Positions 7,522 through 38,554 of a DNA stretch of 64,000 nt are shown in pieces. Source of the DNA: a virus. A program made the position numbers and the translations under genes. Position 1 is the stretch's first letter. Every line of letters starts with the position of its first letter. A model generated the notes under the pieces. The model saw only the letters and a program-made list of their open reading frames with translations, had not been told where the DNA came from and did no database searches. The stretch lies in the IMG/VR virus record IMGVR_UViG_3300005663_000033, positions 1-64,000 of that record; one strand, given 5' to 3'.

Positions 7522-10500
7522 TCAACCAACGCCTTGTAATCGCTCTGAATCATTCGATCAATTAGTTCACCGAAACAAATAGTTGACTCCCATCCTAAAA
7601 CTGTTTTTGCCTTACTAGGATCAGCATGAAGCAGATTAACATCTACCGGACGATAAAATGCAGGATCAATAATTACATAGTCACTATAATCTAGTCCAAT
7701 AGAATCAAATGCCAATTGTAGAAATTCTTTTACAGTATGAGTCTCGCCAGACCCCAATACATAGTCATCGGCTTTCGAGTGTTGCATCATCAACCACATA
7801 CCACGAACCATGTCTTCAGCATGTGACCAATCTCTTTTAGCTTCGATATTGCCCAAAGCCAATGGAAGAACATCAACATCTATACGAGGAAATCCACTGT
7901 TAACATCCATCCAATTCTGAAGCATTGCAACATATTTTGTGATCTTACGAGTAACAAAAGCCTCACCCCTACGTTCACTATTATGAACATGAGACATCCC
8001 AACACCACAATTAAACGTTCCAGATTCCGTTTCAATATCCAAAACATAATCTTCTCTTGGCAATTCAATTATTTTTGTTACTTCATTAGTCAATCTACGT
8101 AGATGTAGTCCCTTGCCAGTATCGTTCGGCGAATGAAAATTTACGTGATATGTCAATACATCTCTGTTAAAATATGTGTTAATATTAAAAGATTGTCCAG
8201 TTAATTGATTAATTATATAAATCAGACCAGAAGCTAAAATGGACGAATTAGTTTTAAAACTCTGATATAAATATGTGCATCTTGTAACTGGACTCTTCAG
8301 CCCGTCACATTGATAATATGCATCAATAAAATCTTTCCATACTTTGCTGAGATTCAAAATAATAGATGGAACTCTTTTCTTATTTCCAGAATATATCAAA
8401 TTTCTTAATTTAACTCTTTGTTCCTTATTTATTCCTCCAAGATATAGTTGTGTAGATTTCCCTCCAAAACCAGATTCACAACAATAAGTTCTGTGTGTAC
8501 CATTATATATAGTTTTCCACAAATATGCTACACGATCTCTAATGTTCTTATCATTATTCGTAAATTGAACTTGGCGATCAATTGACACATATCCATCACC
8601 GACAAGATATCCTAATAATTCAGCAAATTCTGGAGTGAGATTTTCTGATATGATTATTGTATCGGATGTCTCTCGTGGCATTGTTTCAACTAGCGACACC
8701 AAAGACCCTTTCTTCAAATGATCAACTCTAATATCTTGCCCATTTTCATCTAATGCTTTATGATGAGCCGTTGCATTAAAAGAACCACCGCGAGAATTAA
8801 TACAAATCATCCGATGATCACTGTTTTGCTCATCTGTTTTTGTGACTGTCGTCCACTTGATTTTTGTCCAACCATCCTGATCCCAGATATAAGTATCACG
8901 TGTCTCAAATGTCTGTGGCTTATTCGTTTCTGTATCAAAATTATGTAAATCACCTGCGGGAATAATATCTATCATACCATGTCGTTTGATGAATATCGGT
9001 GTATTAGTAGAAATGCATTCGTGGTTAAATAGAATACCCGCACAGGCGAAAATACCGTATGCTCGACGATATAAACCAACAAGTTGATGTGCGTATAGCT
9101 TGGCAACAGCGTATGGCGAATTGGGTACCATAGGTGTTGTTTCACATTGAGGAGCGATATCCGTTTCTCCAAAAAGTTCTGATGTTGAATTCCCCGAAAA
9201 GGCCAGTTTTCCCTTTCTGGAAATCAAAAAATTATGATTATCTTCCATAGACAAACACCAAACCTTACCCCTATATGGAACACGGCTTATGTTTTTTGTA
9301 TAAAGTTTATTTGTGGATTTTCCCGCAATGGTAAATGCATAACTTTTACTAGGAGTAACATCATGTCCACATATTTGTGTCACATTCGGCGTAGCATAAT
9401 TGTATGAACAATTTTTTCCTACATTTGCGCATAATCTAATAAAATCAACAGCTAGTTGATCTGATGTTGTTGTAAAATATTGTGTAACACCACCCCCTCT
9501 TCGATAACCGTCACTGTCTATTAATCCCTCAAATACTCGCTGTTGTAAACTTATCGGTATGGAAAAAACAAAATCTGGAATACTTTTGTATTTACATTTT
9601 GTTCCACACAAACGGAATACAGATGCTAAAGCCGAACAGGATAATTCTATTGTAATATCTTTGGCCCTAAAATCTAATCCAAGTTTATTGAGACATTTCA
9701 GTAATTTATTCCTTGCTTTATCTGGTTCTGGAACAGCAAAAAGAATATAGCTACTTTTACCACCAGACTCAATATCGCGATCCATATTTTCTGCAACAAA
9801 TTTACCATCAAAACTTTTGTTTCTAGTTGTCCCCATCTTTCCACTAAGAGTATTTCTAACGAATTTAACTTTTCTTTTACTAGAGGAAGCAAAATAACCA
9901 TCCCCAATATACAAACCAAGAAGATAATAGAAACATTCGGCATTTATTTCGTCAATTAAATTAACAGAACAATTATCTGCAAAATTATTGTTCGCTAGTT
10001 CTGATAACTTAACGGTTGATACATAACTCTCTGAAAAATGATTTGATGTCATAGGAATAGAATATTTACTAGTTCGACTATAGGGAAACAGTGACGCCAC
10101 ATTACTAGCTTGTTCCCTAACAATACATCCATCATCATTCCTCAACAGAACACTATGATTAGGTGTAACTAGCTGGTTGATCCTTCTACCCTTTAATGAA
10201 ACCATCTTCCCATCGTAGTCATATATCAGTTTTTTAACCACCCGTTTTATTTCAACGCACCCAGTCGATTCATTAAGTGTGTAAACACGATCACCAACAC
10301 AAATCTTGTCATATGATTTAATTCCATCAACAGTAACCACCTTTGTCTCCGTGTCATGGCAGGCTTGATAAAATTTGCTATGTGGTGAAGACTGACGAAT
10401 CGATTCTAGCATATTAAGTGGACCCACTGCATTAATTTGACACGTAGTGATAGGCTGATCAAACGAAACACCAACATGACTCATCGCAGCCAAATTATAA

Positions 10501-33138: not shown

Positions 33139-33504
33139 CCTCTCTTCGATTTTTTTCATCTTTTTTGTCGTCCTATAAAGCGATTGATACAGGCGTTCAG
33201 AAAGGGGCACCCCCTTGTTTAATAAGGCGGGGGACTAGGTGAGAAGGAGTGTATGCGTTTTCTTGTAGGGCATGGATTTTTGGAGCCTAGTATGCCTAAA
33301 CCCCCGGCGGTTATCGGACCTAGCCGAGTTATCGGACCATCCTATATTACCGGCCCACCCCTTAGCCCAGATTTATCGGACCATCTCAGCTAGACATGTT
33401 ATCGGACTATCTTGCATGACATGCAAGGGGAGGTTATCGGACCTATCCTCCTCGCACCCGAACCCTCTTGAGTTATCGGACCAAAAGTTTTTCTTCTCGA
33501 TTTC

Positions 33505-33533
33505 TTGCCTTCGCGCCGATTGTATCCTAGAAT
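33505..33533 (+). promoter_or_regulatory. sigma70-like early promoter TTGCCT-N17-TAGAAT
   Basis: 17-nt spacing, T-rich upstream, followed by a GGAG RBS and ATG 33578. Confidence 0.6.
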
Positions 33534-33577
33534 ATATATGACATGACAACGCACACGACAAACAACGGAGAAAAAAG

Positions 33578-33691
33578 ATGAAACTACTTATCGGACTAAC
33601 GCTTACTGGAATCATCGGCTCTTGTGTTATCGGACTACTCATCAACGCCTACTCCTGGATTGAAGCATCGCTTCATTCAGTAGGCCTTTAA
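33578..33691 (+). CDS. Small membrane peptide (37 aa)
   Basis: MKLLIGLTLTGIIGSCVIGLLINAYSWIEASLHSVGL; GGAG RBS. Confidence 0.55.
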   Translation: MKLLIGLTLTGIIGSCVIGLLINAYSWIEASLHSVGL

Positions 33692-33702
33692 GGGAGAGAA
33701 TC

Positions 33703-33792
33703 ATGGCGACTATTATTATCGGATGTGCGGCAATGGTGGTTATCGGAGCGGTATGGTTGTGGTCTGTATTATCAGACCTTGAGGGGCTATAA
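33703..33792 (+). CDS. Small membrane peptide (29 aa)
   Basis: MATIIIGCAAMVVIGAVWLWSVLSDLEGL; GGGAG RBS. Confidence 0.5.
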   Translation: MATIIIGCAAMVVIGAVWLWSVLSDLEGL

Positions 33793-33794
33793 CA

Positions 33795-34052
33795 ATGGAC
33801 AAGACACTGGTGAAATATCGGACACTAGGCAGCAAATTTAACAGTTACGCTGTAGTACCTACCCTGTTCTTATCGGGCCTACTCGATTGGCTGAAGTTAT
33901 CGGAATGTGCGACGATCATCTCTACGACCGATAACTATCAGCGGATTCTCCGACAATCTGAGTTATCAGACCTAGCCGCTCCTGAATCATGGCCGAGTTA
34001 TGGGCAGTGTAAAGGTTACATTCTCGCTGTAGACATGCTGGAGTGCCGATAA
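33795..34052 (+). CDS. Hypothetical protein within the motif field
   Basis: 85 aa, GAGGGG RBS. Confidence 0.55.
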   Translation: MDKTLVKYRTLGSKFNSYAVVPTLFLSGLLDWLKLSECATIISTTDNYQRILRQSELSDLAAPESWPSYGQCKGYILAVDMLECR

Positions 34053-34287
34053 TGTTTGGACAAGCTAAACTTGAAATACCCACAAGCGGTAATATCGGAC
34101 CTTCCTGTACCACCGGATTATCAGACCAACTAGCTATGACTATCGGACGTACAGCAGCACGCACGTTATCGGAACAAGATGGGTATGTTGTAGTGACACT
34201 TGAATCAGGATCGGTTCGTGTTATCGGCTATAATACGATCCACGACAAACTCGTTATCGGACGTTTAACCATTTAAGGAGCGATAAG

Positions 34288-34644
34288 ATGAGAAACAGAG
34301 TTATCGGACAAACAGGCACGGTGGTGTTATCGGACGATTCGATCTTCCGTAGTAGATCACACAAACGGACCTTGCGCTACCAGTACCTAAAAGTACAGCA
34401 CGGCTGGATTGCGTGGATTTGCGGACCTTTCCATTCTCGGACCTACGGGGTTTGTAGTTTTGGGACCAGAAGAAGGTCGGCTAAAGCAGCACTTGCAACT
34501 CGCCTCGCAAACGATTATCGGTACTTAGGCAATCTAATGTTCTCGGACGTTGATGGGTCCGATACTGTAGGCAAGACCGATGCGCAGTTATTGGACGAAA
34601 CGACGATCAATCATCCGATAATGAGCGAATTGCTAGGCGTGTAG
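34288..34644 (+). CDS. Hypothetical protein within the motif field
   Basis: 118 aa, AAGGAG RBS. Confidence 0.6.
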   Translation: MRNRVIGQTGTVVLSDDSIFRSRSHKRTLRYQYLKVQHGWIAWICGPFHSRTYGVCSFGTRRRSAKAALATRLANDYRYLGNLMFSDVDGSDTVGKTDAQLLDETTINHPIMSELLGV

Positions 34645-35176
34645 TTATGGGGCGCGAAACCGTTTTCTGGATTAAAACCATACTGTACGCAGGTCTTATA
34701 ACTGTGGCAATGTGGTAAAGATTATGGGACCGGCGACATGCGCAATCGTTGGTCCTATAACTTTGCGCCGACCTTTGTGTTATGGGACGTTGAGCCGTGA
34801 GCGATTATCGGGCCTAAGTATAAACTAGTTTACCCTGTGTGTATTGTCCCATAATACATCGGTTTATGGCGCAAAAACGCCATTTCTTATCGGAAATCAC
34901 TTATAAGACGACTTTTTTATCGGAAAGGGTAGATAACTTCGCGGTTTTTAGCTTTTTCATGGTTATTGGACCCCATATTAGGACTAGCATAACCTGTATT
35001 ACAGGACTTTCCGATAATATCGTGGATTTTGAACAAATAACAGGGTTTTTATAGGCAAACGACCGATATGTGATCTCAAAAAGCGGACTTTGTTACAATT
35101 GCAGATTATCGGTCTAAGTGCGATAATATCGTGGATTAGGGTCTCTAGGCGCGGAAAAGTTTTTTCGGATTATACC

Positions 35177-35205
35177 TTGACGGCGTATATAACTAAGCCT
35201 ATAGT
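35177..35205 (+). promoter_or_regulatory. Strong sigma70-like promoter TTGACG-N17-TATAGT
   Basis: Near-consensus -35/-10 with 17-nt spacer at the start of the structured non-coding region. Confidence 0.7.
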
Positions 35206-35299
35206 ATTATGTAAGAAGAAAAAAGAGAAGCAAAAAACGGACCTTTAGGGGTTTACCTAATGAAGTCGTAAACGAAAAACGGACGAATGATTGTGGTTA

Positions 35300-35560
35300 G
35301 GTATCTCCGGCATTGACACAATAGGCCGTCGTGTCAAGTGCTCTACGTGGCGTATGTACCGCACGGGGAATTGTAGGGAGCGCTACCGATAGTTCCCGGG
35401 GGTATCTAACCGTTGTCATTCCGATGACCCGCAAGGGTCTGATAATAAGTGACCGGCGCAACGTCGGTCCGAATAAGGGTTTCAGTACGTTACTACTTGT
35501 CCGTCCCATAACGGGACGGAGTAGTCTCGGGCATGGGACGGGCGATAACCTTGCAAGGGG
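35300..35560 (+). ncRNA. Structured 5' leader or ncRNA
   Basis: Consecutive hairpins (GCATTGACAC/GTGTCAAGTGC; GACCC-GCAA-GGGTC; GGCGCAACGTC; TGTCCGTCCCAT/ATGGGACGGGCG) with G-U pairs and GNRA loops. Confidence 0.5.
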
Positions 35561-35567
35561 AATCGTT

Positions 35568-35879
35568 ATGTCTAACAGTGCCACTGGAACGATTGTCGAG
35601 TTTGAGTCTGCGACTTTCAAGACCAACGCCGCGATTTATCGGGCGAACAAACGCATGGTCGACGCCGCTAGTCGATACGACAGTGTCGATGACGCAAAGG
35701 CCGGTCTTGATGCAGCGTGGAAAGTTCTTGAAGCTCAGGTTGAAAATGGGTCGGGTTACACTCCCGATTCCAAGCTGGGCTTTGGGTCCGACAATGCCAC
35801 CGTGATTGCCGAGAGTCTGCTCGGTCGTCGCAACAGTGTCGGCGCAACTCGTAAGTCGTTCAACGATCTGGGCAGGTAG
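35568..35879 (+). CDS. Hypothetical 103-aa early protein
   Basis: MSNSATG.. after an AAGGGG RBS; the upstream extension in the ORF track lies in the hairpin region. Confidence 0.7.
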   Translation: MSNSATGTIVEFESATFKTNAAIYRANKRMVDAASRYDSVDDAKAGLDAAWKVLEAQVENGSGYTPDSKLGFGSDNATVIAESLLGRRNSVGATRKSFNDLGR

Positions 35880-35889
35880 AGTGTCTGAC

Positions 35890-37270
35890 GCACCGCGCCT
35901 CTAGCGAAGATAGTCTTGTATAGGCTATGTTTATAGGCCGTTAGGGGCGCGTAACGATGGACATTCTGACTTAAAGTCAGGATTGAATCGCTTGGTAGGG
36001 TAGCACCCTATCGTTATAGGTCCACTATCTAGGATCAGCGGTTCCCATAACCAACCATAGCGGGAGGTCCGATACGCATCGGGTATTCCCGGAAGAGGTT
36101 GGGTAGTAGTCCGATAGTCGCCGTAGTAGGGTCTATAAGCGCGCAGGACGTGCGCTAATGGGTCTCAACCGGAGTCAACGGTTATCGGTCGAACTCCAGT
36201 CTTGAGAAGCGACAAAACGTAGAGTCCAGAATGTGGGCTCAGTCTACGCCCGTAGTACGTGGACGGGATAAGTGACGGATCGTCTACACGATTCCTTGTA
36301 TGTCTGGCAAAGGGTCTTGGTACAGCGCCGAGGCAGCTAGACAGAAAAGGGTAGGTCGTGTTAATCATTTTACGGTCCTTCATGGTAATACGTCTATCGT
36401 TTTGGGGTAGGCTTTCTTTTTGTCGTGGGATAGGCATTTCCAAGGGCAAGTCCTGTAAACTCCGTCACAACAATTTCTTTCGCAAGGGTCTCTCGGGGTA
36501 TTGCTGATAGTTCGAGGGGTCTGAGGTTAGAATGTGGCGCGGTTCACGATCTTGTCGGTTAAGTCTTAGATTGGCACGCAACGGGTATTGTGTGTCCAGT
36601 CTCTGTTACTATTTTGCTGAACGACACGACACGACGGACGGGTTGAATAAACTGGTTCATTGCACTGGCGCAACAGTCTCGGCTCGATTAGTCGTTAAAA
36701 TAAGGATACTAGAAACTGTCCTGGGAAAACGGATAGCCAGATTTCATCTGCCAGGGCATTATCCGCAAAAAGCAGTGGTAGGACCTACGGGTCGGGAAGT
36801 CGTGACGATGGGCTGCATAGTCGTCAGTCACGATGGACAAGTTAGGTGGGTTGGCTTGTCAACTTTTTTGATGGCATATCATTATGGGCTGTGGAGTTAG
36901 CAAAGGGAATAATATGCTGGAAGTTAATCCCTGTAGGGATGCATCTTGAGTTGTCTAGCGCAAGACAATGATTGAGCTTATGGCATATCCCGGCGGGTGA
37001 AAGACGAATCTCTCTTTGTAGGTATCGCTAAAACTACAGGGGTACGATTCGTGGAAAGTCCTCCGATCTAATAGACGGGGGAGGTATTTATGAAGCCACA
37101 CTTGGCGCTACAGCCTGTAATGATGTGTCATCATTCGTGGCGCGTTGTCGAGAGATGGCGCGTCGCATTTGTTTATGGGCGAAGGCAATCCTCGTTGTCG
37201 TGTCCCGGAGGCGGAGCGCGGAGGTTAGAGGTAAACCAGCCGTATAACGCCACGCCATAGATGGGATGGG
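35890..37270 (+). ncRNA. Putative large structured ncRNA(s)
   Basis: ~1.4 kb with no convincing RBS-led ORF; many stems with G-U pairs (35894-35906/35939-35951; long-range 36272-36279/36461-36468; 36800-36833; 37004-37051). Confidence 0.5.
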
Positions 37271-37281
37271 TTCCACAAGGA

Positions 37282-37360
37282 AAGCCAGTAGCTCAATTGG
37301 TAGAGTAACTCCAGCCCATGGGCTCGGGGTAGGTTGTGGGTTCGAGTCCCACCTGGCTTT
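37282..37360 (+). tRNA. tRNA-like RNA with a 13-nt self-complementary 'anticodon loop'
   Basis: Acceptor AAGCCAG/CTGGCTT, D arm GCTCAATTGGTAGAGT, stem ACTCC/GGGGT around AGCCCATGGGCTC, T arm GTGGG-TTCGAGT-CCCAC. Confidence 0.75.
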
Positions 37361-38554
37361 TTAGGGAGGGCAATAGTGGGAGTTGGATTTTGCAGCCCAA
37401 CAGCGCCGGATTCGGTGGGGTTTCCGGTACACTTTTTCTTTAGGAGATTGCGATGCTGTTGATAATCAATGACACCGATCCGGTCAGCGAAAAGCACCTA
37501 TCCTGGAATATAAAAAGAACGGTAGGCGAGCGTTCGAATGTTCTTAGTTTGTATGAAATAGTCGAAGTCACATACAAACACCCAGACGCCGATGAATTGA
37601 CAATTCAGGTTATAGAGTCAAAACTGATAGACTCGGCCTGCGTACTGTCAAGCAAGGCGGCTTTGTGGATTTTGTTAGAGGCTGCATTTACGGCTATCAG
37701 CACAGACCGGGTGATAGCTTAGACAAGAGGAATTCCGATACACTTTTTCTTGTAGGGGAAATAAAATGACAGTAAAAAAACTCATCGTGGAACTTCAAAA
37801 GCATCCGGACCACTACAAGGTAGGAATTTACTGCTACGCTTGCGGCGAGGAAGGCAAGACAGAGGTTATTGAAGCAGAATCTTCATTATTTGACGGGAAT
37901 GAAGGTATAGTCACGATCTCAACCTTCTAGCCCAGTCATCACCCCAAAACAACTCCTTTTTCGTAGGGGAAAACTGTGATGGTTCAACCCGCTATCATGT
38001 TGGCCACAGTCCTTTTAGCTCTCATTGCGATCGTCGCAATGTTTGTAACCGTGGGCAGTATTTTATACTTGTTGTGGAAAGGACGCAAAGGATAGGTTAT
38101 CGCCCCACATCTACTAATCACCCTCTCCAAGAAACTATCCGGGATTTTTTATGAACTTTCCGGGGTTTTCTGATTAGTCCAGGTACTTCAGGGGTCATTA
38201 GAACGTTTGCATATTTATGCAAGTGTATTACTATGCCTTTGAACCAGGTGCCTGCCAAAAACGCAGCTAACCCTTCGCCCACGCTCTTTCTTACTATTAA
38301 GGTGTTTGCTCTATAGGGGGAGTAGTTGGTAAAACGGTACAAAAACACGCCTTACGTGGTCAAAAACACGGTTGCGAAGCACTGCGAGTCGGTCGTCGGG
38401 TCTAAGCCAGTTTGGCCTGTATCTGTTTCTATATACGATTTTGTAGGCTAAATGGGACATATAGCGAGTGGTGGGACGGAATGGTATACAGGGCGCTAGG
38501 TACGAAATTTGTATCTGATTTCTTGAATCTTGTAGGCTAACGTCCTGTTATCAA

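What the first reader, a model, noticed from the sequence alone, without database searches (positions are those of the whole stretch)
35890..37270. ~1.4 kb of hairpin-dense non-coding sequence: candidate large phage ncRNA
Seen: in an otherwise gene-packed genome this stretch has no convincing RBS-led ORF but carries back-to-back stems with G-U pairs favouring the + strand. Examples: 13-bp 35894/35951; CTGACT-TAA-AGTCAG; CGGGA..TCCCG; AGCGCGC..GTGCGCT; TGTCTGGC..GCTAGACA; long-range GTGACGGA/TCCGTCAC enclosing ~180 nt; 36800-36833; 37004-37051. It lies downstream of a near-consensus sigma70 promoter and ends at a tRNA-like element. Established: large ornate ncRNAs (GOLLD, ROOL) occur in phages, often next to tRNAs. 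Inference: a new large structured early RNA or a set of sRNAs.
Basis: partly seen in the sequence, partly recalled or inferred. Interest (0 to 1): 0.72.

Follow-up and report, generated by a model that had tools for sequence, protein, structure and literature searches.

The report
New giant folded RNA in sediment phages
About two thirds of the flagged stretch is a real, roughly 950-nucleotide, intricately folded non-coding RNA. It always follows the same small protein gene in large marine-sediment phages and matches no described RNA family, so it looks like a new class of giant phage RNA whose job is unknown.

Summary
The finding is real, but its limits differ from those given. Window 35880-36872 (+) is a conserved structured RNA. 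It has a core of about 890 nt (35881-36765), a small UACG hairpin, a local hairpin and an intrinsic terminator.

- **Conservation:** it recurs directly after the stop codon of a conserved 103-aa gene (35568-35879) in about 40 distinct viral and metagenome loci.
- **Structure:** a consensus fold of 253 pairs in 43 helices is kept in 88.5% of cells, against 36-42% when partners are slid. Of these pairs, 165 show compensatory double changes. In rows not used to derive the fold, 83.8% of cells are paired.
- **Strand:** G-U pairs outnumber A-C by 7 to 1. The folding z-score is -6.6 on the + strand and -2.0 on the - strand.
- **Not coding:** there is no codon periodicity and no open frame.
- **Tertiary contact:** a kissing loop (CUGGC with GCCAG) covaries.
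- **Known families:** no Rfam family matches, GOLLD, ROOL and OLE included.
- **Transcription unit:** a strongly conserved promoter (35177-35205) and a conserved terminator (36836-36872) frame leader, gene and RNA as one unit.
- **The rest:** 36873-37280 is not part of this RNA and is barely conserved. The tRNA-like element lies 410 nt beyond the terminator.

The function is unknown. My best guess is a folded RNA that works with the adjacent protein. This scan has already reported the same RNA class on another phage genome (e1-5678238).

The parts
35177..35205 (+). Conserved sigma70-type promoter (TTGACG-17-TATAGT) with an A/T-rich upstream tract; likely start of the transcription unit
   Evidence: Consensus scan gives 10 of 12 matches. 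Both hexamers and the first ~40 transcribed bases align in about 20 relatives. The conserved upstream block ends at about 35250.
35212..35567 (+). Long leader of the 103-aa gene; its last ~150 nt are conserved
Evidence: nhmmer block 35415-35567 is found in over 25 relatives.
35568..35879 (+). Conserved 103-aa all-helical protein gene of unknown family ('ORF103'), always directly upstream of the RNA
   Evidence: 115 homologues and 70 clusters at 50% identity. Codon-position variability is 0.19/0.16/0.42. The AlphaFold2 model has pLDDT 90 and five helices. There is no Pfam, PHROG or PDB match.
35881..36091 (+). RNA 5' domain: P1 (with a variable-length insert in hairpin P1a), P2, the P3 three-way element, the conserved single strand CCCAUAACCAAU, and hairpin P4
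   Evidence: Helices 2-10 are 85-94% paired, and 31 of their 59 pairs show double changes. P1 starts 2 nt after the stop codon.
36095..36240 (+). Central domain: long-range P5 enclosing a GGGUCU:GGGUCU helix and the GCGC-AGGAC-GUGC hairpin, then P6 and P7
   Evidence: Helices 11-18 (74-100% paired). All 7 pairs of helix 18 show double changes.
36241..36413 (+). Domain P8: a 173-nt irregular arm closed by AGUCUACGCC/GGGGUAGGCU
Evidence: Helices 19-26. Helix 22 has 10 of 12 pairs with double changes.
36421..36631 (+). Domain P9: a 210-nt arm closed by UGUCGUG/CACGACA, with a second GGUCU:GGGUC module
   Evidence: Helices 27-35. Closing helix 27 is 97.6% paired, with 5 of 7 pairs showing double changes.
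36632..36765 (+). Hairpin arms P10 and P11, whose loops CUGGC (36665-36669) and GCCAG (36736-36740) form a kissing interaction
   Evidence: Helices 37-43. The loop-loop pair covaries to CUAGC/GCUAG in L011, L035, L032, L031 and L046, at two places on a tree.
36782..36835 (+). Small conserved GACC-UACG-GGUC hairpin followed by GGGAA, then a locally stable hairpin that is not conserved
   Evidence: The motif recurs in L007, L041, L005, L011 and L013 with an A-U to G-C change. Fold.
36836..36872 (+). Intrinsic terminator: stem, conserved loop GGUGGGUU, then a U-run; 3' end of the unit
   Evidence: Terminator scan. A hairpin with the same loop, a covarying stem and a U-run lies 60-185 nt (mostly 90-100) after the core in at least 11 relatives. 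The same hairpin type recurs at 37405-37435.
36873..37280 (+). Remainder of the flagged stretch: hairpin-rich and poorly conserved; not part of the RNA family
   Evidence: nhmmer finds only weak matches in L013, L011 and L022. A 38-nt block (37093-37130) is shared, but L013 has no ATG there, so the 56-aa ORF 37090-37260 is not conserved.
37282..37360 (+). tRNA-like element with an extended anticodon arm; a neighbour, not part of the RNA
   Evidence: Rfam tRNA model scores 50.2 bits, with a 15-nt stretch where the model has 9 positions. ARAGORN calls tRNA-Gly(ccc), 81 nt. The fold shows a 9-bp anticodon arm with a 4-nt loop.

Best explanation
Window 35880-36872 encodes a new class of very large structured non-coding RNA. 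It has a core of about 890 nt, a small hairpin and a terminator, giving about 0.95-1.0 kb in all.

I infer that it is transcribed on the + strand as the 3' part of one early unit: a conserved sigma70-type promoter (35177-35205), a 350-nt leader, the 103-aa gene, the RNA starting 2 nt after the stop codon, and a conserved intrinsic terminator.

Shown here:
- The RNA folds into about 43 helices, arranged as a 5' domain, a central domain, two long arms of about 170-210 nt, and two terminal hairpins joined by a kissing loop.
- It is under strong selection for this fold.
- It is tied to the 103-aa gene across deep divergence.

Inferred: the RNA acts as a folded molecule in its own right rather than as a message or a DNA site. 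Most likely it forms a ribonucleoprotein with the helical protein encoded just upstream, as OLE RNA does with its neighbouring Oap proteins. It would serve early in infection as a scaffold or decoy.

My odds:
- functional structured RNA: 0.95
- one transcription unit with the gene: 0.65
- works together with the 103-aa protein: 0.35-0.4
- forms GOLLD/ROOL-type homo-oligomers: 0.15
- ribozyme: 0.1

The overall confidence of 0.6 covers the statement as a whole. It is high for 'new structured RNA in this frame' and moderate to low for the partner mechanism.
For: **Conservation**
- nhmmer finds the RNA directly after the 103-aa gene in every fetched locus that has sequence downstream and a protein at least 52% identical, at 200-1000 bits.
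- It is also found in L318, where the protein is only 41% identical.
- Distant homologues L050, L051 and L053 are followed by 900-970 nt with the same folding signature (z -6.2 to -7.7), and L051 also shows recognisable motifs.

**Structure**
- 253 pairs are 88.5% kept, against 36-42% for slid partners. 165 pairs have double changes, against 79-90 for slid partners. 0 of 500 shuffles reach the observed values.
- Held-out rows are 83.8% paired, against 36-42%.
- The kissing loop covaries.

**Strand and RNA nature**
- G-U makes up 17.8% of paired cells and A-C 2.4%.
- z is -6.6 on the + strand and -2.0 on the - strand. Coding controls give z of about +0.3 to +1.1.

**Not coding**
-.

**Transcription unit**
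- The promoter is conserved base for base in about 20 relatives.
- The terminator has a conserved loop and covarying stems.
- No + strand promoter-like site lies between the promoter and the RNA.

**No known family**
-.
Against: - There is no expression data. No RNA run holds the sequence, so the transcript, its ends and any processing are all inferred.
- Nothing shows that the protein binds RNA. It is not basic (13 K/R against 13 D/E by my count), has no known RNA-binding domain, and has no structural match.
- Synteny alone could reflect shared regulation rather than a complex.
- The consensus fold was derived from the same alignment on which most of the counts were made. Some helices are weak (73-80% paired), and the most divergent subgroup (L002, L048, L039) fits it at only 61-64%.
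- Loci were fetched through the protein, so an RNA without the gene could have been missed. One pattern scan found none.
Confidence: 0.6

Rival explanations
1. It is a giant structured 3' untranslated region acting only in cis. It would stabilise the message for the 103-aa protein or control its translation or termination, with no role as a free RNA.
For: - The RNA starts 2 nt after the stop codon in the window and within about 10 nt in relatives.
- No separate promoter is seen.
- The gene and the RNA are always together.
Against: - 43 conserved helices, conserved single-stranded motifs and a covarying kissing loop over about 900 nt are far more than 3' stabilisers need.
- In L318 the RNA is far better conserved (537 bits) than the protein (41% identity).
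Confidence: 0.2
2. It is an RNA-only homo-oligomeric assembly (a nanocage or similar) like GOLLD and ROOL. The conserved loop motifs would act as contacts between molecules, and the neighbouring protein would be irrelevant.
For: - Its size, ornate fold, phage origin and frequent tRNA or tRNA-like neighbours resemble GOLLD and ROOL (PMC12286853).
- The covarying CUGGC/GCCAG loop pair could form in trans, as quaternary kissing loops do in ROOL (PMC12286853).
- The GGGUCU motifs are repeated and nearly invariant.
Against: - No sequence or structure match to GOLLD or ROOL.
- The kissing loops sit on adjacent hairpins and can equally well pair within one molecule.
- GOLLD and ROOL have no fixed protein-gene partner, whereas this RNA does.
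Confidence: 0.15
3. It is a DNA-level element next to the strand-switch and box array, for example an origin, a primer transcript for replication (ColE1 RNA II style), or a binding field for the protein that reads the GTCCGATAA boxes.
For: - It lies about 700 nt downstream of a dense field of GTCCGATAA boxes, beside the strand switch and the GC-skew minimum.
- Three one-mismatch boxes sit inside the RNA gene.
Against: - Covariation keeps RNA pairs with 7 times more G-U than A-C, which is meaningless for duplex DNA.
- Folding is strongly strand-asymmetric.
- A simple primer would not need 43 conserved helices.
Confidence: 0.05
4. It is a divergent member of a known catalytic or large RNA class that the covariance models missed: a group I or II intron, RNase P RNA, or an rRNA fragment.
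For: Its size and complexity are in the range of ribozymes. A GGGAAGUCCG stretch recalls RNase P CR-I; this is from my memory only.
Against: - No Rfam match even at E <= 10 with permissive filters, and none in 18 relatives at gathering scores.
- The upstream gene ends at a conserved stop codon, and no downstream exon is conserved. There is therefore no interrupted gene for an intron.
Confidence: 0.05

Closest known systems
GOLLD RNA (Rfam RF01998)
   Same: A very large (over 800 nt), ornate, covariation-supported RNA of phages and prophages, often near tRNA genes, and of unknown function (PMC12286853). Here tRNA or tRNA-like genes lie 0-1.5 kb downstream in the window and in L007, L047, L046, L013 and L002.
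   Different: - No match to the GOLLD model at any threshold tried.
- Different architecture.
- Always fused behind a specific 103-aa protein gene within one promoter-to-terminator unit.
- Sits at the head of the early region rather than inside a tRNA island.
ROOL RNA (Rfam RF03087)
   Same: A large phage-borne RNA with pseudoknots and kissing loops supported by covariation. No function is known (PMC12286853, PMC5737381).
   Different: - About 580 nt, against about 930 nt here.
- No model match.
- No protein partner is known for ROOL, whereas this RNA has a fixed protein-gene neighbour.
OLE RNA and its Oap protein partners (Rfam RF01071)
   Same: A large ornate RNA whose dedicated protein partner is encoded next to it and which works as a ribonucleoprotein (PMC12286853, PMC11332333). 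That is the arrangement I propose here.
   Different: - OLE is about 600 nt, cellular (Bacillota) and membrane-associated.
- No model match.
- Binding of the 103-aa protein to this RNA is untested.
Candidate structured RNAs from the IMG/VR-wide screen (Fremin et al. 2023, PMC10690425)
   Same: The same data source and the same covariation-based logic. Fragments of this RNA may be among its 8,495 phage candidates.
   Different: That catalogue holds motifs of 30-151 nt only, so it cannot describe a 0.9-kb RNA as one unit. I could not check its tables for overlap.

Membership tests
GOLLD (RF01998) | Match to the family covariance model at or above the gathering score | tested here: not met
   No match in the window at gathering scores or at E <= 10 over 34600-37500. 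None in 18 relatives at gathering scores.
GOLLD (RF01998) | Phage or prophage location, often beside tRNA genes | tested here: met
   The window is an IMG/VR viral contig with portal and terminase genes. tRNA or tRNA-like genes lie downstream in the window and in five relatives. This is context only and does not establish membership.
ROOL (RF03087) | Match to the family covariance model | tested here: not met
   no match.
OLE (RF01071) | Match to the family covariance model; oapA-type neighbour gene | tested here: not met
   No Rfam match. The neighbouring protein has no Pfam family.
Group I / group II introns (RF00028, RF00029 and related) | Catalytic-core match, and insertion in a gene with conserved flanking exons | tested here: not met
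   No Rfam match at E <= 10. The upstream protein ends at the same residue in 40 aligned homologues. Downstream genes are not conserved.
Large structured ncRNA (generic: conserved fold shown by covariation, non-coding) | Compensatory base changes well above controls, no coding signal, strand-specific fold | tested here: met
Intrinsic (Rho-independent) terminator, for 36836-36872 | G+C-containing hairpin directly followed by a U-run, with conserved position | tested here: met
   Scan hit. The fold gives -11.4 kcal/mol and is followed by AACUUUUUU. Relatives have an equivalent hairpin with covarying stems. Termination itself was not measured.
tRNA (RF00005), for 37282-37360 | Cloverleaf match plus a 7-nt anticodon loop | tested here: not met
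   The cloverleaf scores 50.2 bits. However, the anticodon region forms a 9-bp arm with a 4-nt loop. It is tRNA-like and not a decoding tRNA.

The most novel reading that the evidence does not exclude
The 103-aa orphan helical protein and the ~0.93-kb RNA form a dedicated phage ribonucleoprotein particle encoded 'protein first, RNA second' on a single early transcript. The protein could then load onto the RNA emerging just behind its own stop codon. This would be a new kind of viral RNP machine or cage used for host takeover.
Probability: 0.3. Interest if true: 0.88.

Novelty: new variant of a known kind. Interest (0 to 1): 0.78.

Why it matters
Only a handful of bacterial and phage RNAs approach this size and complexity: rRNAs, RNase P, group II introns, OLE, GOLLD, ROOL and raiA. 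Several of those recently proved to build unprecedented RNA-only cages, and their functions are still unknown.

This RNA adds a class of about 0.95 kb with an unusually clear genetic frame:
- a conserved early promoter,
- a fixed small protein gene directly in front,
- a conserved terminator,
- a covarying kissing loop.

That frame makes it directly testable. One can co-express the RNA and the protein, probe binding, and image by cryo-EM. It also offers a rare case in which a giant phage RNA comes with a candidate protein partner. It may show what large phages of sediment bacteria do in the first minutes of infection.

Tried and rejected
- **Alternative genetic codes and coding on either strand:** rejected. 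No frame is open in any homologue, even with TGA, TAG or TAA reassigned, and there is no 3-base periodicity.
- **Phage GenBank collection:** blastn found no match.
- **Public sequencing runs:** no RNA holder is listed. Only marine-sediment DNA runs hold the stretch, so expression could not be examined and read laying was not used.
- **Loose pattern scan:** AGCGGG..GGTATNCCCGGA in viral and genome contigs gave chance hits only. Just L091, which is the L007 contig, was real.
- **CsrA-type sponge idea:** GGA is not enriched, 17 observed against 17.6 expected.
59.5% paired, so not conserved.
- **Protein function:**
  - No Pfam, PHROG, PDB-sequence, Foldseek, VIA-align or ESM Atlas lead.
  - A profile search reached FIVAR-repeat surface proteins with the N-terminal half. 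I take this as a shared three-helix repeat pattern, not a functional lead.
  - A helix-hairpin-helix-like GFGSDNAxVIA motif is my recollection only and was not detected by Pfam.
- **Other pseudoknots:** a scan gave many short G-U-rich candidates that I do not trust. One is possibly real: GUUAU 36013-17 with AUAAC 36047-51.
- **Covariance model:** I did not build one, because nhmmer already recovered all relatives.

Full report
**What the window is.** The window is the first 64 kb of a 113-kb IMG/VR viral contig. It carries portal-like and terminase-like genes, and public runs that hold the sequence are marine-sediment metagenomes. The flagged stretch lies just after a strand switch, within a run of small + strand genes.

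**Checking the observation.**
- No ORF of note lies in 35880-37280.
- As RNA, the whole 1.4 kb folds to -543 kcal/mol on the + strand and -384 on the - strand.
- For 35880-36872 the + strand z-score against dinucleotide shuffles is -6.6 (-379 against -321 +/- 8.8), and the - strand gives -2.0.
- For 36873-37280 the z-scores are -5.0 and -3.5.
- Four coding stretches of the same length give z +0.3 to +1.1.

The stretch is therefore hairpin-dense beyond chance, and the first kilobase is so in a strand-specific way.

**Relatives.**
- The gene just upstream (35568-35879, 103 aa) has 115 homologues in metagenomes and 70 clusters at 50% identity.
- Fetching their loci from viral and metagenome contigs and searching with nhmmer gave a clear result. 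Window 35880 to about 36770, and to about 36870 in subsets, is conserved at the DNA level directly after the gene's stop codon. This holds in every locus that has downstream sequence and a protein at least 52% identical. That amounts to about 40 distinct loci, at 200-1000 bits, mostly on contigs from large phages of 113-181 kb.
- A pattern scan independent of the protein found two true copies, both again behind the gene. In one of them (L318) the protein is only 41% identical while the RNA scores 537 bits.
- Still more distant protein homologues (L050, L051, L053) are followed by 900-970 nt with the same folding signature (z -6.2 to -7.7).
- L051 shows the recognisable landmarks: an AGUGU start, a GC-rich first hairpin, paired GGGUCU motifs and GUUAUCGG. 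I take these loci to be a divergent subfamily.
- Beyond about 36870 the window matches only L013, L011 and L022, and weakly.

**It is a structured RNA, not a gene or a DNA site.**
- An RNAalifold consensus computed on 17 full-length rows of alignment A3 has 253 pairs in 43 helices.
- On all 32 rows, 88.5% of cells are standard pairs, against 36-42% when the 3' partners are slid by 1-3 columns.
- 165 pairs carry double (compensatory) changes, against 79-90 in the slid controls. The covariation score is 0.259 against about 0.06. None of 500 column shuffles reaches the observed values.
- The fold was derived from part of the same alignment, so I checked the 15 rows not used to derive it. They are 83.8% paired, against 36-42% when slid. 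Rows 75-85% identical to their nearest training row reach 85-92%.
- The divergent L002 group fits at only 61-64%, partly because of misalignment.
- Among paired cells, G-U is 17.8% and A-C 2.4%, so the + strand is the RNA.
- Column variability has no 3-base period (0.236/0.235/0.250), whereas the upstream gene shows 0.19/0.16/0.42.
- No homologue has an open frame, even with one stop codon reassigned.

**Anatomy in window coordinates.**
- P1 starts 2 nt after the TAG stop codon and encloses hairpin P1a (35894/35951), which carries a variable-length insert.
- P2, a three-way P3 and the invariant single strand CCCAUAACCAAU follow.
- P4 (36061-36091) comes next.
- A central domain (36095-36240) is closed by a long-range helix. 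It contains a helix made of two GGGUCU strands.
- Two long arms follow: 36241-36413 and 36421-36631.
- Two hairpin arms, P10 and P11 (36632-36765), end the core.
- The P10 loop CUGGC and the P11 loop GCCAG are complementary. They change together to CUAGC/GCUAG in five relatives, at two places on a tree. This is a kissing loop, within one molecule or between molecules.
- GGGUCU is over-represented.
- A small GACC-UACG-GGUC hairpin (36782-36794) is shared by several relatives.

Most of the listed stems are confirmed. The long-range GTGACGGA/TCCGTCAC helix is not: it is 59.5% paired, and both of its strands have better-supported partners.

**Transcription unit.**
- The promoter-like site TTGACG-17-TATAGT at 35177-35205 is conserved almost base for base in about 20 relatives. 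The conservation includes an A/T-rich upstream tract and the first transcribed bases.
- No + strand promoter-like site lies between it and the RNA.
- At 36836-36872 a hairpin with the loop GGUGGGUU is followed by AACUUUUUU.
- Relatives have a hairpin with the same loop, different but complementary stems and a U-run, 60-185 nt (mostly 90-100) after the core.
- The same hairpin type ends the next unit at 37405-37435.

I therefore read promoter, 350-nt leader, 103-aa gene, RNA and terminator as one early unit of about 1.66 kb. This is inference, because no RNA data exist.

**The remaining 400 nt.** Region 36873-37280 is not part of the family. It holds local hairpins. It also has a 38-nt block (37093-37130) shared with L013 and L011. 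The 56-aa ORF with a good Shine-Dalgarno sequence is not conserved, because L013 lacks the ATG. The tRNA-like element at 37282-37360 has intact acceptor, D and T arms, but its anticodon arm is 9 bp with a 4-nt loop. It is a neighbour of the RNA, not its end.

**Comparison with known families.**
- Rfam 15 gives nothing but tRNA hits. This holds for the window at gathering scores, for 34600-37500 at E <= 10, and for 18 relatives at gathering scores.
- The RNA is therefore not GOLLD, ROOL, OLE, a group I or II intron, RNase P RNA or any other catalogued family.
- It resembles GOLLD and ROOL in kind: large, ornate, phage-borne, often near tRNA genes, with covarying kissing loops and unknown function (PMC12286853, PMC5737381).
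- It resembles OLE in having a protein gene fixed beside it.
- The IMG/VR-wide screen for structured RNAs reports motifs of 30-151 nt only (PMC10690425).
- An earlier report of this scan (e1-5678238) described a roughly 900-nt new giant RNA in ~160-kb uncultivated phages that shares short words with this stretch. I take it to be the same class seen on another genome, and my results agree with it.

**Mechanism.**
- Shown: the fold, the strand, the non-coding nature, the conserved frame of promoter and terminator, and the fixed pairing with the 103-aa gene over deep divergence.
- Inferred: the RNA works as a folded molecule, most plausibly together with that protein.
- The protein is confidently predicted as a five-helix protein (pLDDT 90). 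It has no relative of known function and no obvious RNA-binding character, so this link rests on synteny alone.
- Rivals are a purely cis-acting 3' region, an RNA-only oligomer of the GOLLD/ROOL type, a replication or DNA-level role next to the GTCCGATAA box field, and a missed known ribozyme. I give each its odds in the report sections.

**Verdict.** This is a genuine new class of giant phage RNA. Its limits are shorter than the finding stated and its genetic context is more defined than the finding stated. Its function is unknown. I rate interest high, somewhat tempered because the scan has already met this class and because large ornate phage RNAs of unknown function are a known phenomenon.

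Noticed in passing
window 33311-35126, and 36067, 36109, 36182: GTCCGATAA/TTATCGGAC boxes: 65 hits with at most 1 mismatch, against 14.5 expected. They are dense and mostly one-way between 33311 and 35126. Three one-mismatch copies sit inside the RNA gene, where they form parts of helices P4 and P5. In relatives the consensus has the exact box in P4. Earlier reports on other genomes read such boxes as Xer/dif half-sites.
   Followed up: partly
window 37282-37360; L046 1789-1907; L013 6599-6694; L047 5171-5240: tRNA-like genes with abnormal anticodon regions or large inserts (79-119 nt) recur downstream of the RNA in several relatives. In L007 a tRNA-Asp, and in L047 a tRNA-like gene, follow the RNA within a few bases. 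There is also a weak YrlA (Y RNA-like) hit at 37306-37426 (19.5 bits, E 0.9).
   Followed up: partly
window 36836-36872 and 37405-37435; L002 about 8110-8150: This phage group uses a stereotyped terminator: a hairpin whose loop reads GGUGGG(G/U)U, followed by ACUUUUU. The stems covary between relatives.
   Followed up: partly
window 37093-37130: A 38-nt block (AAGCCACACUUGGCG..CCUGUAAUGAUGUGUCAU) is conserved with L013 and L011, although the ORF that starts there in the window is not. It could be a small RNA or a regulatory site.
   Followed up: no
window 34288-34644 and 34740-35250: The 118-aa gene upstream and about 500 nt of the following ORF-free region (box field plus promoter) are conserved in 15-25 relatives. 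The conserved module is therefore 118-aa gene, box field and promoter, leader, 103-aa gene, RNA. Genes downstream of the RNA are not conserved.
   Followed up: partly
L050 2354-3300; L051 4313-5285; L053 1771-2679: Distant homologues of the 103-aa protein (39-50% identity) are followed by 900-970 nt that fold with z -6.2 to -7.7. For L050 and L051 the signal is on the + strand only. This is probably a second, divergent subfamily of the RNA.
   Followed up: partly
proteins P0164, P0184 (profile search with A2): The N-terminal half of the 103-aa protein family matches the repeats of FIVAR-domain surface proteins in a whole-library profile search (E 1e-13 and 7e-4, summed over repeats). Pfam does not call FIVAR in the phage protein itself.
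   Followed up: partly
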